Source of the DNA: Tubiluchus corallicola
Lineage: Eukaryota > Animalia > Priapulida
Length of the DNA stretch: 64,000 nt
NCBI GenBank assembly: GCA_030141605.1
Contig: JAQGDQ010000173.1
Coordinates: 366,974-430,973, forward strand
Reading direction: 5' to 3'
In this document: positions 3,755 through 59,579 of the stretch, piece by piece
Layout of the letters: the number at the start of each line of letters is the position of its first letter
How positions within the stretch are numbered: the stretch's first letter is position 1
The notes under the pieces: model-generated
Database searches by the model: none
Told to the model about the DNA's origin: nothing
What the model saw: the letters and a program-made list of their open reading frames with translations, nothing else
Made by a program: the position numbers and the translations under genes

Positions 3755-5471
3755 TAGTAGTAGTAGTAGTAGTAGTAAATCTCCAGTAGTTATAATATAA
3801 CTTTTGAGACAAATAGTTCTTCGACTGTAATTGCGACAAACTGGCACATACAATAGATTGTCATCAACACCTAGGTGACTCCACTGGCAAGTTTTCTCAC
3901 TATAATATGTAATCCAGCATCCTTGTTATAGGCATGTTCCAATTAGCACGGTGATTAAATTTCAAAGGATGATGTTCATAGTGTCTATCTAATTTTGATT
4001 TAAATAAATTTACAAATGTTGCTGTTCTCACATCACAGGGCAATCTATTCCAGATTTCTGGCATCGTACAAGAAAAATAGTCGTATTTACCAGTTTTGTG
4101 TGCAGTTCTTGATTTATGAAGAATAGGACCTGATCTTGCTGTACGATGTACTTCTAATTTAACAGGACAATCATCACAGCTGTAAACTCCAGATACATAT
4201 TTGTATACATCGATTAGTTGGCCACGTAAACGTCTAAAAGCTAATGTAGTTAAACCTATTCGTTTTAACTGACTTTCATACGTCAAGTTCATTAGTTCCG
4301 GTAACATGTTGAAAGCTCTCATTTGGACAGTTTCGACTGGGTCCACTATATATGCCCTAGGACTATTCCAAATACTACTTCCATACTCCACTTTTGATCG
4401 CACAAGTGCCACATATAGAAGCTTGAAAGTTTGCAGATCTAGGTACTTGAAATTCCTCCTTATTAAAGCATTGCTTCGTTTGGCACTCTTTATGATTTCT
4501 GCTATGTGATCTTTAAAATTTAGTTTATTATCAAGTAATAATCCAAGGTCTTTCTCACAAGCACTAAAGTCCAATTCTGCCGGAATGCCACTTGCATCAT
4601 ACATTTTGTATTTATACTCATATCCTGCTCCCACAGATACAACCTTACACTTGTTGGGATGGAACTGCATACCATTTTCAACTGCCCAATCACAGAGCCC
4701 TTCTAGATCCAATTGAAGATCATTACAGCTGGTAAAAGAATCAGATTCAGACCAGATTTTGCTGTCGTCGGCAAAAAGACGAAGAGAATTACTCACACAA
4801 CTAGGCAAGTCATTTATAAATACCACAAATAAACACGGACCTAATACCGAACCTTGCGGTACACCACTAGTAATCAAGGACTCAGTCGATTTGTAACCAT
4901 CAACACACGTACATTGACTTCTATTTTCTAAGAAGTTTACTATCCACTGTAAAACTGAACCAGTTATACCACAATTTTTAAGTTTTGCAAACAGAAAGTG
5001 ATGAGGTACAACATCAAATGCCTTTTTCAGGTCCAGTAGTATTATATCAAAAGGCTTATTAGCATCTTTTAACTCAAACCATGCATCGTAACATTGTAAC
5101 AGTTGGGTAACCGTTGTTCTACCCTTAACAAACCCATGTTGTTCTTCACAAATAATGTTGTATCTTATCAGATGGTTCATTATATGTTTCCGCATGATTT
5201 TTTCTGTCACCTTATTAATTGTATTTAGTAAGCTAACTGGCCTGTAGTTCGATGGATCTGACTTGTCCCCTTTTTTATGAATGGGAGTAACCTGTGCCAC
5301 CTTCCATTGTCCAGGTAACTGACAATCAGCAAAAGACCTATCCAGTAAGGTGTATATAGGCTTAAAAAGCACAGTTCTACATTCATTTAAAATACGTGGA
5401 TGGTAACTATCTGGAGCGGATTTGTTTACATTGAGATTTTGTATCTCTATGTCCTCTAGTTTTAGAACCAA
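3755..5471 (-). mobile_element. 5'-truncated CR1-clade LINE (RT, C-terminus, 3' UTR, (TAC)n tail)
   Basis: 523-aa ORF 3900-5471 with NYRPVSL, DLKKAFDVVPH, GVPQGSVLGP, FADD and CR1-type EKDLG..LVRSKVEY..RRLRGQLI; trinucleotide tail 3755-3778. Confidence 0.9.
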
Positions 5472-5797
5472 GAATTAATTAAAGAATTTTTCAGGTAAAA
5501 TGTTTCTTTTCTAGTTTTTATAAACCTCAACACAATTCCACGGTGTTTTTTAATTCAAGGTTGGTCAAGCTGCAATACCTCAACCTTTCCATATTATGTT
5601 AGATTTTTACAACCGAATTATTTTTGTAACACGCCTTCGTACATCTTCCGTAAGTAATATTTCTTTCTGATAACGGGGATTCCAAAGTTTCACACAGCCA
5701 CTCACTATTCTAGATGAGGTATAACAAAAGCAGTATAATTTCGATTATTTATTTCTTTTTTATTTCTCGAAACTATGTGCCGCTTTATATTATTATC

Positions 5798-10002: not shown

Positions 10003-49561
<39,559 letters not shown>

Positions 49562-50792: not shown

Positions 50793-51856
50793 CCTGCTTA
50801 GAAGTGTCTGTTAGAAAGTAAAAATTTGCTAAAATCAACATGACATAGCCGTTTTTACAGATTTTTCTGTTGCCAGCATTTACAGTTGGAGCATCATTCA
50901 CATGTGGTGTAAGTTTATTCCATAAACTTACAACTCTGTTGCTGAAGAAATGTTTGAAGCAATTAAGTGAATTTTTTTCACTTGTAATTTCAAATGGTGG
51001 CCCCTTGTAAAACTTGCAAGTTGTGCAAAGTTAAAAAATATTCACTTGAGATTGATATGTCACCATGAATTATGCTATAGCAAATTCTCTAGTTCATTTG
51101 TACATTCAAAGTAACTTCTAATTCAAAGTACGTTTGCTAATTAAAATAGGCAACATATATAAAAATATTTAAAAAGATAGAATACAACCATAAAACATAA
51201 ACATTAATATTTGGTCTGCTGATGATTATGAGTCGCCTTGGACATCCATAGACGCAGAACAGCTGCTCGTTATTTCCTCTGGGCCTCTTCTCTGCGGAAT
51301 TATTAGCCAGAATATTGTTACGTTGAATTCCTTACGCGCTTCTGGAAGAACGTGGTTCCCAGCACCAGCCTGTTGCTAAGAAATTAGCGCTTTTTTTCTG
51401 GACCGTCTTCCGTTTCACATGTTTTTACCATATGGCTACCGTCTTTGGGTCCACTTGTACAAAACGTTTCGTTCCATCTGTTATGTTTCAGTAAAATTTG
51501 CATAGCAACACATACTCGTTAAACTATTTTAGATTAACTTATGTAGACTTATTTGTGTGTCTTAAATTACAATACCTGGTGCAATAAGTCATATATTAAT
51601 ATATAAAAAGTATGAGTTTAGTTTAAACTTGATTTATTTATATTGGATTTACAAAACAGACTGGGTCTGATTCAGATATCTCCACAGTACAAGTGCTGAG
51701 TGAAAAGTGTTAATAGAAGATTAAAGGACACCACAATTAATAATTATCACACTTTATTTAATAAAACAATTGATTCAATTACAATTACAATCAGTTACAA
51801 TTACAATTACAATTACAGTTACATCAATTCACTGTATGCTGCTAAAATTAAATCTC

Positions 51857-51952
51857 GGACCGGCGAATAGCTCAGACGGTAGAGCATGCCACCTGAATTC
51901 GCAAGGTTCTGGGTTCGGGCCCTTGTTGACTCACAATGTTCATCGTCTTTTT
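51857..51952 (+). mobile_element. tRNA-derived SINE head / tRNA pseudogene
   Basis: A box TAGCTCAGACGG, D-arm GCTC/GAGC, B box GGTTCGGGCCC, unpaired acceptor stem, T5 at 51948-51952. Confidence 0.6.
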
Positions 51953-51961
51953 CCTCAGTTA

Positions 51962-52508
51962 TTTGTTGGCATCCTTGTGTCTCGGAAGACAATGGAATGT
52001 GCGCCAAGAGAGTCAGTTATTGATCACATTGATGGAGCTGCAGCGTCGACTGTGGCTGAGCTGTCCGATCCTTGAACGTCTCCAGGGTGCACGCCTGGAC
52101 AAGGTGTATGGAGATCCTGAGTTGCCCAGACAACAAGAACCCCCTCTCTTCCTCCCTGGTGTAGTCCAAAGGAAAGTGGAGCGATACGTTTGGCACCAGG
52201 TTGGCTGCAGGAACTGCCGGGGTCAGTGAGCATGCTGCACTGGTCCGCCTTCGGGGCTCCACTCCTGATTTGGAAGGTTTACGCCTCTACACATGGCCGT
52301 TGGGTCACTTGACCTCCTCCGCCCTCTAGCCGATGGCTGCTTGTGCAGCTCCTCCGCCTTGTGTCGAGATACAATGTGGGCATCCCGCAAGCCTACAGCA
52401 CCTGGTATTCCTAGGCGGTCACCCATCCAAGCACTAACCAGGCTCTACGTTGCTTAACTTCGGTGATCAGACGAGAACCGGTGTTTTCAACGTGATTTGG
52501 CCGTAGAC
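51962..52508 (-). mobile_element. 5S rRNA-headed SINE (SINE3-type) with RTE-like body and tail, 9-bp TSD
   Basis: TSD CCTCAGTTA at 51953-51961 and 52509-52517; 5S head; ~430-bp GC-rich body ending ccattgtcttccgagacacaaggatgccaacaaa. Confidence 0.82.
52389..52508 (-). rRNA. Full-length 5S rRNA-derived sequence (SINE head, probably not an rDNA gene)
   Basis: rc GTCTACGGCCAAATCACGTTGAAAACACCGGTTCTCGTCTGATCACCGAAGTTAAGC..GGATGGGTGACCGCCTAGGAATACCAGGTGCTGTAGGCTT, 120 nt, no oligo-T terminator. Confidence 0.9.
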
Positions 52509-53329
52509 CCTCAGTTAATTAGCAGTTAGCTTAATTGCTGTAGAGTGGCGTCTCTTTTCAAGAGCATGCGTACGTGCGATTCGAATCGAATTCGATTTCT
52601 TGCTGTGTTTGCTCTCCCTTGCTGCACCAAAGGTAACACCATACCTGCATCGTCTAAGACATCGCTTACACAAACACAGTTCTCTCTTTACGAAACGAAC
52701 CGCTGAAAAATACTGCACTTCGTTTGTCGTCCATCCACATTGTACGATTATTTGTCTTGCGCCTCCACCCTGTGTACCCCGTCTCGGGCACGATCGGCTT
52801 TCCGTGGTTTTGGCATCAAAGTAAATCATAAACTAGTTAGTGTTTGCGTTTACGATTAACTTCCGTTTTCCTCTGCCTTGTTAAAGAATTATCAAATTTG
52901 CCTTTTCGTCCACCATATTTATCCACTCGAATGTCTCCCGGCGGATTACTGTAGAAGTTTCTCAAGACAACGGCAGCGCAGGAGCTTAGCGAATTGTCAA
53001 ATTGCGCACAAGCATATTACGCTGGAGAATTGTCTGTCTGCTATATATTACTGCCGGTTGTCGAATAAAGTTTATTAAACTAGGCTTGGGAGACTTGGAA
53101 TTATCCTTCAAATTGTTTTCCAAGTCGTTGTTGACGTCAGAATTACGTCGATTTAGCTTTTGTGTTTGCAAGTAATGAGAAGTCACTTCTGCATAAGAGG
53201 GCGCACTGTTTTGAGTCGTTCGTGGTTTTTCTTTTAGTTCGCTTTGTGCTTATGCACTGACTCGAGGAGTGACTCCTTAATAGCTGGCAAAAATTTGTGG
53301 CTCTGGCAAAAAGCTGATAGATTATCTAC

Positions 53330-53745
<416 letters not shown>

Positions 53746-54422
53746 ATTTATTTATTTATTTTAGTTCAGACATTTAAAAAAGGGACAAGCAAAAACGCAA
53801 AAAATTAGTTGTTAGTTTACAGAAAAAGTAATTAAGCTTGTTTACAAGAAAATGTTATTTTCAAAATGGGTATTTAAGATTCTCTGCCACATCTTGAAAA
53901 TATTCAGTCTAATTAATTGTATCATTATCGTACATAAAGTTATTATTAATAGTATGTAACTTAAAAACGTCCTACTTGTAAGACTAAATAAAGCAAAGAC
54001 TATAATTAATTATATATATATATATAATTACAGTAAAATATAATATAATAATATTTAATTACATATAATATATAATTACATTATAATATATATAATAAAA
54101 ATAGAATAAAATATAATTACATTACAGTAAGATGGGCTTGTTCACTTTCGCTGAATAGTATAAGTTGTTCAGAACAAAGACGAGTAATTTCACTTCTACA
54201 TGCAAACAGCTTAAACAAACGCCATCTTGCGTTGTGCGGTATACGCTCTGTGAACAGGCGCGACCCAGTTTTTGCTTTAAGTTCAGTTCGGTTTACTTTC
54301 TTTTTTATTTGATGCCGTGTGAACTGTCTCACACGTGTGTCAGATTTTTGTAAAACGTTTAATTGCAACGCACGACCAGGTAGCTGAGCAGTAGGCCTAC
54401 TTTTAGGCCTTTGGTTGTTTAA

Positions 54423-54997
54423 AGGAAAATCGGATGATTGTGTAAACACGAGTTTAGAATAAAGCATGCTCTAAAATATAGAAAACTACAATAGCTTTTT
54501 TTAAATCAAAACTTAGGTTAAATAATAATTACCTCGGATACTCAAATTTTGTTAAACTTTCAAAGCTACGCGCGGCTCAGTGAATCTACTAAGATTGGCA
54601 GCGGCTCCTTTTTGTCACATTAGCGTGGCCGACGAATAGGGGGCGGTACCGTGATAACCAAGATCATGAAATGCAGTGTTAGTTTTTGACGTCATGTGAC
54701 GTAGAGCCCATTTTTCGTGACATCATGCGTTTAAACAGTACTGTAACGCCTATGCAAATGTGCTTAATGCGCAAGGGATCATGCCTGCCATTGCACAAAC
54801 CGTTTTTAGTTTCTGACGTAAGCAATTGCTGTGTTCGGTTGCCGGTAATTAACATTCTAAACTAATTATTCAAATATAAAGAACAATTTTTAGCTTTTAT
54901 AGGCAAGGAAATGTATATTTTGGATAGTAAATTAAAATGTATATTTTGGACAGTAAATTAAAATGAGATTGAGTCAAAACAATCGTCCGGTCTTACT
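54423..54997 (+). mobile_element. Kolobok-like MITE copy 1
   Basis: TTAA|aggaaaatcggatgattg ... caatcgtccggtcttact|TTAG; matches 57993-58534 in reverse. Confidence 0.7.
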
Positions 54998-55483
54998 TTA
55001 GAGTCACAAGTTTTATGCAGCGTTACTACTAATGCAAGTTCTGTGCACAATAAGGCAGTATGTAAGATTTCAAGCCGAACTTTTGAACGTTTTTATAGTC
55101 GTTCATACCTTTTCGCACACACTGAAATAACAACGCATACATGAACACGTCCCTGCAAAACAGGGCTCTCTCTCTAAGCCTAGTTGATTAAAAAATACCA
55201 CAATTTATGACAAACACATCTACGTATGTATCACAGTGCTGACTGAACACATTAGTACGTCAGGCTGAATAAGAGTGAAATTTTCTACGCAAGAACATTT
55301 TAAACAGTGATGCAAACTTTACTTCTGTAATTAGACGTTATTGGCGTAGTTTGTTATATCGTTAATTGTTGTTTGTGTTATTGTTGTGTGTCATGATTTA
55401 TTGTATTATTTGTATTAATTTATGATGTGTATAATAACTTTGAAAAGTTTGAAATAAATTATTAAATCTTAAAAATCTTAAAA

Positions 55484-56203
<720 letters not shown>

Positions 56204-56998
56204 GTAAACATGTATAAACTCGATATTAAGGCAAACTAAACCCTTTAAATGCATCTGAAACATGATTAATTCATGAGCACCGTTTCAGCTGGCTATTAGT
56301 TGCCTGTACACGTTTTAAAACCATTAATATATGCACAATTCACTTCGAAATTAAAATGTGAAAAATGGTAGCAATGAAATGACTAAATCATAGATTATTT
56401 TTGTTCAAGTTTCCGGACCATCCGAGCTCAGTTAACAAATCACCCGAAAAACGATTAGTAGTACTAATCAGTTCCTGTCAGCCTATTGCTAGGTCCTTAA
56501 CTACACTGGCATTCTATGGGAATGTGAGCTCCACGGCCATATGAACGGTGATGCAAATATCGCTTTCTTTTCCTTCATTCTTTTCTTGTTTGTCAAGTAA
56601 ATACACGGTAATGTGAACCAGCCCTCGTGAAAGCGCGCGCAGGCGAGAACCGTCCCGGTGAAATTTACATTTTGGCGAGACTGTAGATTGGCGAATTGAC
56701 CGAGCAGCCGGAACTAGATAACTCTGAAACGGAATGTAAAACGGAATGTAAACGCTGTCAGGTTTGCAAACTGGTAACGTTATGTCGACATTTCGTCGGG
56801 GAGCGTCAATAAATTTGACCATTTCGTCGGGTTCTGTCGGTCATTAGGCCTCTAGGTTAATGTCCTGAGATCTGGTGAACTTCTTCTTTGTCAGGCGTTA
56901 AGATATTTGCATCCTGTTCCATGTTGAAAATACTGAAGCAAAGTTTCTTGGCTTTTCACATATATTGCTATGTAATAAATCTGAACTTATCTCTTTAA

Positions 56999-57127
56999 AG
57001 GAAAATCGGATGATTGTTTAGACTCAATCTCAATATAATTTACTGTCCAAAATATACATAATCTTGCCTATAAAAGTTCTTTCCTATATTTAAATAATTA
57101 GCTTAGAAAGTTAATCAACGGCAACCG
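56999..57127 (-). mobile_element. Truncated copy of the same Kolobok-like MITE
   Basis: TTAA|aggaaaatcggatgattgtttagactcaatctc.., similar to 57993-58125; ends at the (CAA)n run. Confidence 0.65.
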
Positions 57128-57390: not shown

Positions 57391-57992
57391 AGGAACCTAA
57401 CTACATGTAATTATCAAGTTTAGTTGTCTAAGGTGAGATACTGAAGGAGCAAAAGCCTTGGTCACATCGTTTTCGTATAAAGCTTCCCTCAGCAAAGAAA
57501 ATAACCAAAAGAAATTGTACAGAACTACAGACGGTCTCCCATCCATTTACCTACCATGTTTAAGACAGGGACAGGTATCATCATGGCAGCTCTGTGCAAA
57601 AACACACAAATACATGCACGAGTAAGTGACCTATGTATTATGTATGGGTACCGTATTTAGCAACAAAACAAAACCACAGTTTACCCCACAACGTTTAAGA
57701 CTTGCCAGAAAATCCATACATTGCCCCCGCTTTTAGTATCCAGGTAACCGGGAAGCAGACCTGCATCAGAGGAAGCTGATCAAGCTCATTAGTATTGATG
57801 TTATAATGTGTGGCGTTAATTAGAGAGGCTGACCTCAGAATTACTGTACAAACATAAGCGACATATCTGATTTAATTAATTATATATTTATATATATATA
57901 TATATATAATATGTCCTAATATATTTATATATATGTCCTAGATGCAGAAGACTTTGCAAGCAGGATATTAGTCGAGTATTGGTGATCATTAA

Positions 57993-58534
57993 AGGAAGAC
58001 CGGACGATTGTTTAGGCTCTATCTCGTTTTAATTTACCGTCCAATAAATACATTTTCTTACCTATAAATGTTAACAGTTGTTCCTTATATTTGAACAATT
58101 AGCTTAGAAAGTTAATTAAAGGCAACAAAACACAGCTATTGCTTACGTCAGAAACTAACCACGGTTAGTGCAATGGTAGCCATCTTCTCTGCGCGGCAAG
58201 CACGTTTGCGTAAGTGTTACTGCTTAAACGGATGATGTCACGAAAATGGGCTCTGCATCATGTGACGTCAGAAACTAACACAGCAGTTCATGATCATGCT
58301 TATCACGGTACCGCCTTCTATTTGTCGTCCACGCGAATGTGACAAAAAAGCGCCGTTGCCAATCTTATTAGATTCACTGAGCCGCGCGTAGCTTTGAAAG
58401 TTTAGCGAAATTTGAGTATCCGAGGTAAGTATTATTTAATCTAAGTTTTGATTCACAAAACGTTAATGTAGTTTTCAATATTTTAGAGCATTCTTTATTC
58501 TGAACTAATGCGTACACACTCATCCGGTTTTCCT
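57993..58534 (-). mobile_element. Kolobok-like MITE copy 2, inverted relative to copy 1
   Basis: TTAA|aggaagaccggacgattg ... catccggttttcct; shared core gattcactgagccgcgcgtagctttgaaag. Confidence 0.7.
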
Positions 58535-59579
58535 TTCCTAAAGGAAGACAGGATGATTTTTCATATACTACCCCATTTTCAAATCCGACAACAAGTATAC
58601 ATTTTAACACAGTTAATATTCCAAAGTTTCTGATAATCAAATAATAGATTTAAAACTTAATTAACGGCGACCGAGCCCAACTATTGATGACATCACAAAC
58701 TAACATAATTTTCAACATCAAAAATATTCCACGAGCGTGTTGCACACGTTTGCAAATGCGAATATTGAAGTACAGTGCTACTATAAGATATTCAGTGTGT
58801 TGTACTAAAATTAAACAAGTTTTAAGATAAAAATTCAACTTTTTAAAATTTACCATTGTGCTCACGCGTGAGCTACCTAACACATATGAACTTTCATTAA
58901 CACGTCATTAACACATCTGGACTGAGAGGTACAGCATCTGTTTTTTATGTAATGCTTTCCGAAATGCTAACGCTAGTGCCCGCGTAACTAGTGAATGACG
59001 AAATGCATGTAACAGCGAAGAACTAGTGGTGCGAACGCGAAATTGTATTTGTGTGGTAATAATTCTTTCACGTGAGTCACTTTTTGAAAAAGTAGTATTT
59101 TCCTTTCAATATTTTAAAGAGTAGATTGTTTTGACTTGCAGTTTAACACTGGGTCCATTTTTGATTTTATATTAATGAGCACTTACCGTTTACATTTGAC
59201 ATTGATTTTTATGACATGCTTTGAAAGTTTCACTTGTGCTTCTCATGATAGCATCAGAGATTAATTAATCATAGTCAGCAATTAGAGTATAATTAGGGGT
59301 TCCTTAGTCTGGTGTTACTAATGATCAGGTTCGTAGCTACTCTCGGCTTGATGGTTAAGAATGAATGAGTGCTAAGCTTACATGATCCACTATTTTCTCG
59401 TGTGCTTACTTCAGACATTCCCAGAGGCAGAACTGTTCTGATTTTAAACCCAGTTTTTTTTCTGCTGGCTTCTTATCTACGGAATTTTCGACTTGGAAAC
59501 TTAACACAATTTAAGAAGAATATAAACTGGTAGGTTTTTATCATCAGTAAAGTAATTATGATGAATTCTATTCTCGTGG

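What the first reader, a model, noticed from the sequence alone, without database searches (positions are those of the whole stretch)
51953..52517. Intact 5S rRNA-headed SINE with an RTE-like body, bounded by a 9-bp TSD
Seen: a complete 120-nt 5S rRNA copy on the minus strand, with its first base directly abutting CCTCAGTTA. It has no T-run terminator and is fused to a ~430-bp GC-rich body that also has no TTTT, so Pol III could read through. The body ends in ..ccattgtcttccgagacacaaggatgccaacaaa plus the second CCTCAGTTA. Established: SINE3 elements use the 5S internal promoter, and RTE-mobilised SINEs often combine RTE 5'-UTR and 3'-UTR pieces. Inference from memory, not a search: the body (ggcagttcctgcagccaacctggtgccaaacgtatcg..tttggactaca..gagaggggg) and tail resemble RTE-clade UTRs. 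A 5S + bipartite-RTE SINE in a lophotrochozoan may be an undescribed family. The start of the body (cattgtatctcgacacaagg) also echoes the tail (cattgtcttccgagacacaagg), hinting at stepwise assembly.
Basis: partly seen in the sequence, partly recalled or inferred. Interest (0 to 1): 0.78.

Follow-up and report, generated by a model that had tools for sequence, protein, structure and literature searches.

The report
Abundant 5S-headed SINE with RTE body
This is one copy of an abundant, dispersed jumping-gene family in an animal genome, made of a whole 5S ribosomal RNA sequence fused to non-coding DNA resembling an RTE retrotransposon, whose enzyme it likely borrows to copy itself; the design is already known from fish, snakes, rodents and moths, so it is probably just a new family of a known kind.

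Summary
Confirmed as a real SINE3-type retroposon, not 5S rDNA and not a one-off chimera. A complete 5S sequence (Rfam 108 bits, 52390-52508, minus strand) runs into a 428-bp body, between 9-bp direct repeats. In sequencing contigs of two samples, head and body lie thousands of times deeper than the flank. Family ends fall at the element's ends, with 131 different 5' flank contigs in one run and a (CAA)n tail. Diverged copies bridge the same head-body junction. This copy differs from the family majority at 13 of 547 sites; 8 of 13 lesser variants are CpG decay. The body matches the 5'-UTR of alligator RTE-12_AMi (25/27, then 10/11 at identical spacing; compared by eye). The tail's RTE origin is inferred: no reference 3'-UTR match and no autonomous partner was found. 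The head-tail 'echo' is chance-level and weaker in the family, and no HDV-like ribozyme was found. 5S heads on RTE-derived bodies are already described (Ped-1, CoeSINE5, HaSE3, SINE-1_Pmo). The host lineage, transcription and Repbase/Dfam status are untested. Verdict: a probably uncatalogued new member of a known kind.

The parts
51962..52508 (-). Whole SINE copy, 547 bp
   Evidence: Summed contig depth over it is thousands of times that of the right flank in 3 runs (X3 has no cover there); loose ends pile up at 51963 and 52506-52508
52509..52517 (.). 5' copy of the 9-bp target site duplication (8 bp if read as starting at the A)
   Evidence: Exact repeat, only two copies in the window; RTE TSDs are mostly 7-15 bp (PMC6007223)
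51953..51961 (.). 3' copy of the target site duplication
52389..52508 (-). Complete 5S rRNA-derived head, ending at the mature 3' end without a T4 terminator
   Evidence: RF00001 108.4 bits, all 120 model positions, all helices paired. One majority difference in the head, at 52432, where 75% of depth has the Rfam-consensus base
52449..52459 (-). Start of box A of the type-1 Pol III promoter (5S +50)
   Evidence: Motif located; box names and positions are recalled, and A/IE/C boxes are named in PMC8010984
52411..52430 (-). Box C region of the type-1 promoter (from 5S +79)
   Evidence: Motif located; no majority difference inside it; label recalled
52283..52388 (-). First 106 nt of the body; origin not shown, probably further RTE 5'-UTR
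   Evidence: Family-wide depth; HDV-like ribozyme descriptor at chance level; no Rfam hit at E<=10
52210..52282 (-). Segment like the RTE-12_AMi 5'-UTR: 25 of 27 identical at 52271-52245, a 24-nt variable spacer of the same length in both, then 10 of 11 at 52220-52210
   Evidence: By-eye comparison with the RTE-12_AMi row in the supplement of PMC5786205; coordinates
52091..52172 (-). Five short motifs in the same order as in the RTE-11_AMi 5'-UTR part of SINE2_Gav
   Evidence: By-eye comparison with supplement part 2 of PMC5786205; weaker than the RTE-12 match, no score computed
52012..52090 (-). Variable middle: a related variant carries about 12 extra letters at 52077-52079 and diverges beyond; 8 contigs skip 52012-52062
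   Evidence: Loose ends and joints
51962..52022 (-). 3' tail, inferred RTE 3'-UTR: 5-bp stem with 4-nt loop at 51978-51991, then a short (CAA)n end
   Evidence: Fold; family 3' loose ends continue as (CAA)n in all 4 runs; one contig of run X24 has a related tail ending in (TCA)n

Best explanation
This is one copy of a dispersed, high-copy SINE3-type retroposon family with a complete 5S rRNA head, likely transcribed by RNA polymerase III from that head and likely copied into new sites by the reverse transcriptase of an RTE-clade LINE. Shown: complete 5S head, constant head-body junction, many different flanks, (CAA)n end, TSD at this copy, RTE-like 5'-UTR segment, low divergence, CpG decay. Inferred: (1) TFIIIA/C/B use the internal A/IE/C boxes and Pol III reads through to the next T4 in the flank, about 660 nt for this copy; (2) the RTE endonuclease/reverse transcriptase binds the 3' hairpin and (CAA)n and inserts by target-primed reverse transcription, leaving the 8-9-bp TSD; (3) the family arose once, when reverse transcription of an internally deleted RTE RNA switched onto the 3' end of a mature 5S rRNA, which explains a junction at the exact end of 5S. 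This copy most likely lies antisense in an intron of, or just downstream of, a polycystin-1-like gene and is probably neutral.
For: Head. Copy number: in X1 summed depth averages about 2.0 million over the body and 1.7 million over the head, against 188 in the right flank; X2 78-262 thousand against 11; X4 (second sample) 35-139 thousand against 13. The tool says this is no copy number; allowing up to 31-fold overlap of contigs it still implies hundreds to about ten thousand copies. Dispersal: 107 + 24 contigs with unrelated flanks at 52506/52508 and 59 + 17 at 51963/51965, agreement 0.41-0.44. Junction: records 7, 13, 14 and 24 (86-90% alike) have at least 31 letters on both sides of 52389/52390, and no junction loose end is among those shown. 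Age: 13 majority differences in 547 nt and no indel at 8% or more. Methylation: 8 of 13 lesser variants are CpG transitions, while CpG holds 52 of 547 sites. RTE: RTE-12_AMi match (hand estimate of chance about 2e-5 over the 142 kb supplement); (CAA)n ends and 7-15-bp TSDs are typical of animal RTEs (PMC6007223).
Against: No autonomous RTE was seen: no genome is held and collection scans gave nothing or chance hits. No published RTE 3'-UTR matched the tail. The RTE comparisons are by eye. Transcription is not shown: the only run with the same species label that may be RNA gave 1 contig of 70,053, a related tail and not this family. No empty site was among the 15 joints shown of 80. This copy lacks the T stretch about 10 nt upstream of the TSD that is described for RTE insertions. 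Table 7 showed 6 of about 290 loose-end rows for X1, so minor junction variants could be hidden.
Confidence: 0.85

Rival explanations
1. Same SINE3 family, but the tail was swapped and another LINE clade mobilises it; the RTE 5'-UTR is only a leftover body, as in Ceph-SINEs.
For: The tail has no demonstrated RTE match. Tail exchange is documented in PMC5786205. The middle of the body varies between subfamilies.
Against: The (CAA)n end, TSD length and terminal hairpin fit animal RTEs. A related tail with another microsatellite exists in X24.
Confidence: 0.07
2. A non-autonomous RTE derivative transcribed by read-through or from its own UTR, with the 5S head as a passenger and not the promoter.
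For: No transcript start was seen. 5S promoters are said to depend more on upstream signals, so retroposed copies may be silent (PMC8010984). RTEs often rely on read-through plus a ribozyme (PMC6765202).
Against: The head is kept in most copies (head/body depth about 0.87) and copies start at or within 2 nt of 5S +1, as expected for a Pol III start. No ribozyme was found.
Confidence: 0.05
4. A displaced 5S rDNA unit (orphon) whose 'body' is the non-transcribed spacer.
For: The 5S sequence is complete and folds normally.
Against: No T4 terminator, a family start at 5S +1 with no shared upstream spacer, unrelated flanks, a (CAA)n tail, a TSD and RTE-UTR similarity.
Confidence: 0.01

Closest known systems
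CoeSINE5 (coelacanth; PMC5786205)
   Same: [quoted passage not shown]
   Different: 225 bp, with a partial, diverged 5S (match to 5S 18-89) and about 50-nt RTE pieces of another RTE lineage. Here the head is complete and the body is 428 bp; no shared body motifs were seen by eye.
HaSE3 and PxSE4/PxSE5 (moths; PMC5786205, PMC8010984)
   Same: Invertebrate SINE3; HaSE3 has RTE 5' and 3' parts; PxSE4/5 have thousands of copies.
   Different: Degenerate 5S head (about 63% identity for PxSE4/5), a central body of other origin, an RTE-2_DPl-type UTR, different tails.
SINE-1_Pmo (python) and Ped-1 (springhare)
   Same: 5S head on RTE-clade sequence; both papers list bipartite 5'+3' UTR structure.
   Different: The partner is BovB; about 240 bp for SINE-1_Pmo; the sequences do not resemble this body.
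RTE-12_AMi and RTE-11_AMi (alligator RTE LINEs); OegopSINE and SINE2_Gav
   Same: Share the 5'-UTR segments found in the body.
   Different: The LINEs are autonomous; the two SINEs have tRNA heads. Similarity is patchy, so these are distant relatives of the partner, not the partner.
Zebrafish SINE3-1, AmnSINE1, OS-SINE1
   Same: 5S-derived type-1 promoter head.
   Different: DeuSINE body and CR1/L2-type tails, not RTE.

Membership tests
SINE3 (5S rRNA-headed SINE) | 5' head derived from 5S rRNA with internal A/IE/C promoter | tested here: met
   Rfam 108.4 bits, full model; box motifs present (labels recalled)
SINE3 (5S rRNA-headed SINE) | Multi-copy and dispersed, with different flanks | tested here: met
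   131 5'-flank and 76 3'-flank contigs of low mutual agreement in X1; depth thousands of times the flank in two samples
SINE3 (5S rRNA-headed SINE) | Uniform head-body structure among copies | tested here: met
   Flat depth across the junction; 4 listed records at 86-90% bridge it. Full copies could not be aligned
SINE3 (5S rRNA-headed SINE) | Short, non-coding, no internal Pol III terminator, simple-repeat 3' end | tested here: met
   547 bp, stops in all 3 frames, longest T run 3; (CAA)n end
SINE3 (5S rRNA-headed SINE) | Target site duplication | tested here: met
   9-bp repeat at both family-defined ends of this copy; no empty site seen; other copies' TSDs not testable
SINE3 (5S rRNA-headed SINE) | Pol III transcription from the head | not testable with these tools
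   Only contigs are served; X24 held no copy of the family
Bipartite RTE-mobilised SINE | Segment from an RTE 5'-UTR | tested here: met
   25/27 + 10/11 to RTE-12_AMi at identical spacing, by eye
Bipartite RTE-mobilised SINE | 3' end shared with an RTE 3'-UTR | tested here: inconclusive
   Hairpin, (CAA)n and a related tail in X24; no reference match in the supplements searched
Bipartite RTE-mobilised SINE | Autonomous RTE partner in the same genome | not testable with these tools
   No genome held; a variant diverging at 52077-52079 may be the partner or a sister family
Bipartite RTE-mobilised SINE | RTE insertion signature (T stretch about 10 nt upstream of the TSD) | tested here: inconclusive
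   Absent at this one site; it is a statistical signature and one site cannot decide
Canonical 5S rRNA gene / rDNA unit | T4+ terminator directly after the coding region, in a tandem array | tested here: not met
   No T run; no second 5S in the 64 kb
HDV-like ribozyme of RTE 5' ends | Nested double pseudoknot with P1-P4, L3 and catalytic C | tested here: not met
   Best descriptor score reached by 110 of 300 shuffles, and 57 of 300 without P1 (descriptor recalled, this copy's letters only)

The most novel reading that the evidence does not exclude
An independently born, recently expanded SINE3 family in a non-insect invertebrate lineage, whose hundreds to thousands of heads are complete, foldable 5S sequences that act as dispersed TFIIIA-bound Pol III units and yield 5S-containing RNAs able to bind TFIIIA or ribosomal protein uL18, so blurring the line between 5S genes and a parasite.
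Probability: 0.12. Interest if true: 0.6.

Novelty: new member of a known kind. Interest (0 to 1): 0.33.

Why it matters
It is a further, probably independent origin of a rare SINE class (5S head on RTE sequence), with an unusually complete head and long body. It fits the model that internally deleted RTEs seed new SINEs by picking up a Pol III head (PMC5786205). Practically, every copy would score as a 5S rRNA gene in Rfam-type annotation and inflate 5S gene counts in this genome, and a young, abundant family is a source of insertion markers. It does not reveal a new mechanism.

Tried and rejected
No whole genome is held, so the genome BLAST could not be run. Within the window there is no second copy. 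Pattern scans: viral contigs 0 and 0; metagenome contigs 0, then 16 loci with only the pattern itself matching; genome contigs 0, then 6 bacterial loci that were not aligned and are taken as chance. Head/tail echo: rejected. HDV-like ribozyme remnant after the head: a hairpin and an L3-like stretch suggested it, but the descriptor score is chance-level, the fold z-score is -0.5, Rfam has no hit, and depth does not drop where cleavage would fall. The family majority differs at 3 sites in this region, which I did not refold. Lack of TTTT as evidence: rejected. Host taxon: two protein searches with one exon gave no hit. X24 gave no cover of the family, which is no proof of absence. The flanking tRNA-like stretch as a high-copy host SINE: depth only 2-3 times the flank. 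Earlier notes by place and by sequence: none. Eight literature searches listed no paper whose title or shown abstract describes a 5S-RTE SINE in annelids or molluscs; most listed papers were not read, and Repbase Reports are not held.

Full report
Observation. On the minus strand, 52390-52508 is a complete 5S rRNA sequence (RF00001, 108.4 bits, model 1-120) and the only Rfam hit at gathering score in the window. It runs without a T run into a 428-bp GC-rich body ending at 51962. One 9-mer flanks both ends (51953-51961, 52509-52517) and occurs nowhere else in the window; chance is about 5e-4 even allowing 91 offsets. The lack of TTTT is real but unremarkable (47% of 2000 shuffles). The first terminator on that strand starts at 51847, so a Pol III transcript of this copy would be about 660 nt.

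Is it a family? No genome is held, so I used public runs. Of 24 listed, 3 hold half or more of the words (one sample) and a fourth, from another sample, holds 0.37. I laid 4 of the 24 on 51500-53000, then X1 and X24 on 51940-52530. Summed contig depth over the element is 1.2-2.3 million in X1 against 188 in the right flank, 78-262 thousand against 11 in X2, and 35-139 thousand against 13 in X4; X3 has no cover of that flank. The tool warns that this is no copy number. Overlapping contigs can inflate it up to about 31-fold (my reasoning from the word length), which leaves hundreds to about ten thousand copies. In X1, loose ends gather at 52506 (107 contigs), 52508 (24), 51963 (59) and 51965 (17) with agreement 0.41-0.44, which means unrelated flanks; the 3' ones continue as (CAA)n in all four runs. 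In 3 of 4 runs the letters beyond 52506 fit a full-length start with another base at +2, so the 2-nt offset may be a variant and not a truncation. Head depth averages 0.87 of body depth (my averages of the bins). Four listed records at 86-90% identity bridge the head-body junction (7, 13, 14, 24; probably two loci). This excludes an rDNA orphon and, nearly, a one-off chimera. Only the best-supported rows are shown by the tool, so rare junction variants could be hidden, and no empty-site joint was among those shown.

Age and chromatin. This copy differs from the majority at 13 of 547 sites (2.4%), and no indel reaches 8%. Of the 13 lesser variants, 8 are CpG transitions, while CpG covers 52 sites. 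That points to a fairly young family methylated in the germline (inference).

Origin of the body. The supplement of PMC5786205 prints part of the RTE-12_AMi 5'-UTR. By eye, window 52271-52245 equals it at 25 of 27 letters, then comes a 24-nt spacer of the same length in both, then 10 of 11 at 52220-52210. A hand estimate of chance is about 2e-5. Five motifs at 52172-52091 lie in the same order as in the RTE-11_AMi part of SINE2_Gav, a weaker likeness. [quoted passage not shown] (CAA)n ends and 7-15-bp TSDs are typical of animal RTEs (PMC6007223). No printed RTE 3'-UTR matched the tail, and scans of viral, metagenome and prokaryote collections gave nothing or chance hits. So the 5' RTE part is tested and the 3' part inferred. 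Figure S4 of PMC5786205 (RTE/SINE alignment) is a picture and could not be read; it may bear on this.

Ideas rejected. The head/tail echo is reached by 7-10% of shuffles, and two of its matches are rare letters of this copy. An HDV-like ribozyme remnant, plausible because RTEs can carry one, scores at chance.

Mechanism. Most likely Pol III starts at 5S +1 from the internal promoter and reads into the flank; an RTE protein binds the 3' hairpin and (CAA)n and inserts a copy by target-primed reverse transcription; and the family began with one template switch from an internally deleted RTE RNA onto the 3' end of mature 5S rRNA. These steps are inferred from anatomy and from known families. Transcription was not seen. 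REJ-domain exons reach 47.8 kb on the plus strand, after WSC and EGF exons, so the copy probably lies antisense in or just after a polycystin-1-like gene; no exon beyond it was identified.

Comparison. 5S heads on RTE-derived bodies are known: CoeSINE5, HaSE3, SINE-1_Pmo (PMC5786205) and Ped-1 (PMC3747384). PMC7245038 says that some bipartite RTE SINEs carry 5S heads and lists SINE3 in vertebrates and some insects. An unchecked note of this scan reports a 5S SINE with an RTE tail in a planarian (e1-9384174). This family differs by its complete head, long body and RTE-12_AMi-like segment. Eight searches listed no description of it, but Repbase, Dfam and SINEBase could not be searched, and the host lineage is untested.

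What was read. PMC5786205: main text parts 1-3 of 5, passages, supplement parts 1-3 of 15 and three motif searches. PMC7245038: passages and a supplement search without hits. PMC8010984, PMC6007223, PMC13295347, PMC3747384, PMC4824008, PMC4758252, PMC6765202: passages only. PMC4844689: supplement search only. Ruminski et al. 2011 is not held and is known only through PMC5786205 and PMC6765202. Promoter box positions and the ribozyme descriptor are recalled.

Verdict. Real and correctly read in outline; a probably uncatalogued SINE3 family of a known design. Interest 0.33.

Noticed in passing
window 51861-51933 (+): tRNA-like stretch (Rfam tRNA 23.2 bits, below the gathering score of 29, E 0.056) 20 nt from the TSD and facing the SINE; depth only 2-3 times the flank. 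Likely a decayed tRNA-SINE head or pseudogene.
   Followed up: partly
window 51615-51775: Another repeat family: depth 27-33 thousand in X1 at 51602-51703 with unrelated flanks at 51615. Not identified.
   Followed up: no
window 10783-47767 (+): Exons with WSC, EGF and REJ domains of a polycystin-1-like gene; no homolog found for one exon.
   Followed up: partly
window 38285-44527: 440-bp direct repeats at 96% (38285-38723, 44088-44527) around fragmented frames, one with DUF1759: likely a decayed BEL/Pao-type LTR retroelement (label recalled).
   Followed up: no
window 3900-5474 (-) and 20538-21336 (+): Reverse transcriptase frames (RVT_1) that look CR1/L2-like by recall, not RTE; clade not tested.
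   Followed up: no
window 52392-52499: A joint that goes back from 52499 to 52392 (depth 893 in X1) hints at a few copies with a doubled 5S head.
   Followed up: no
window 52412: The head has A where the Rfam 5S consensus has G and no majority difference is listed there: either a family-wide mark or this species' own 5S letter.
   Followed up: no
window 54421-55012, 56984-57127 and 57986-58536: Copies of a dispersed repeat in inverted and direct orientation, 70-81% alike.
   Followed up: no
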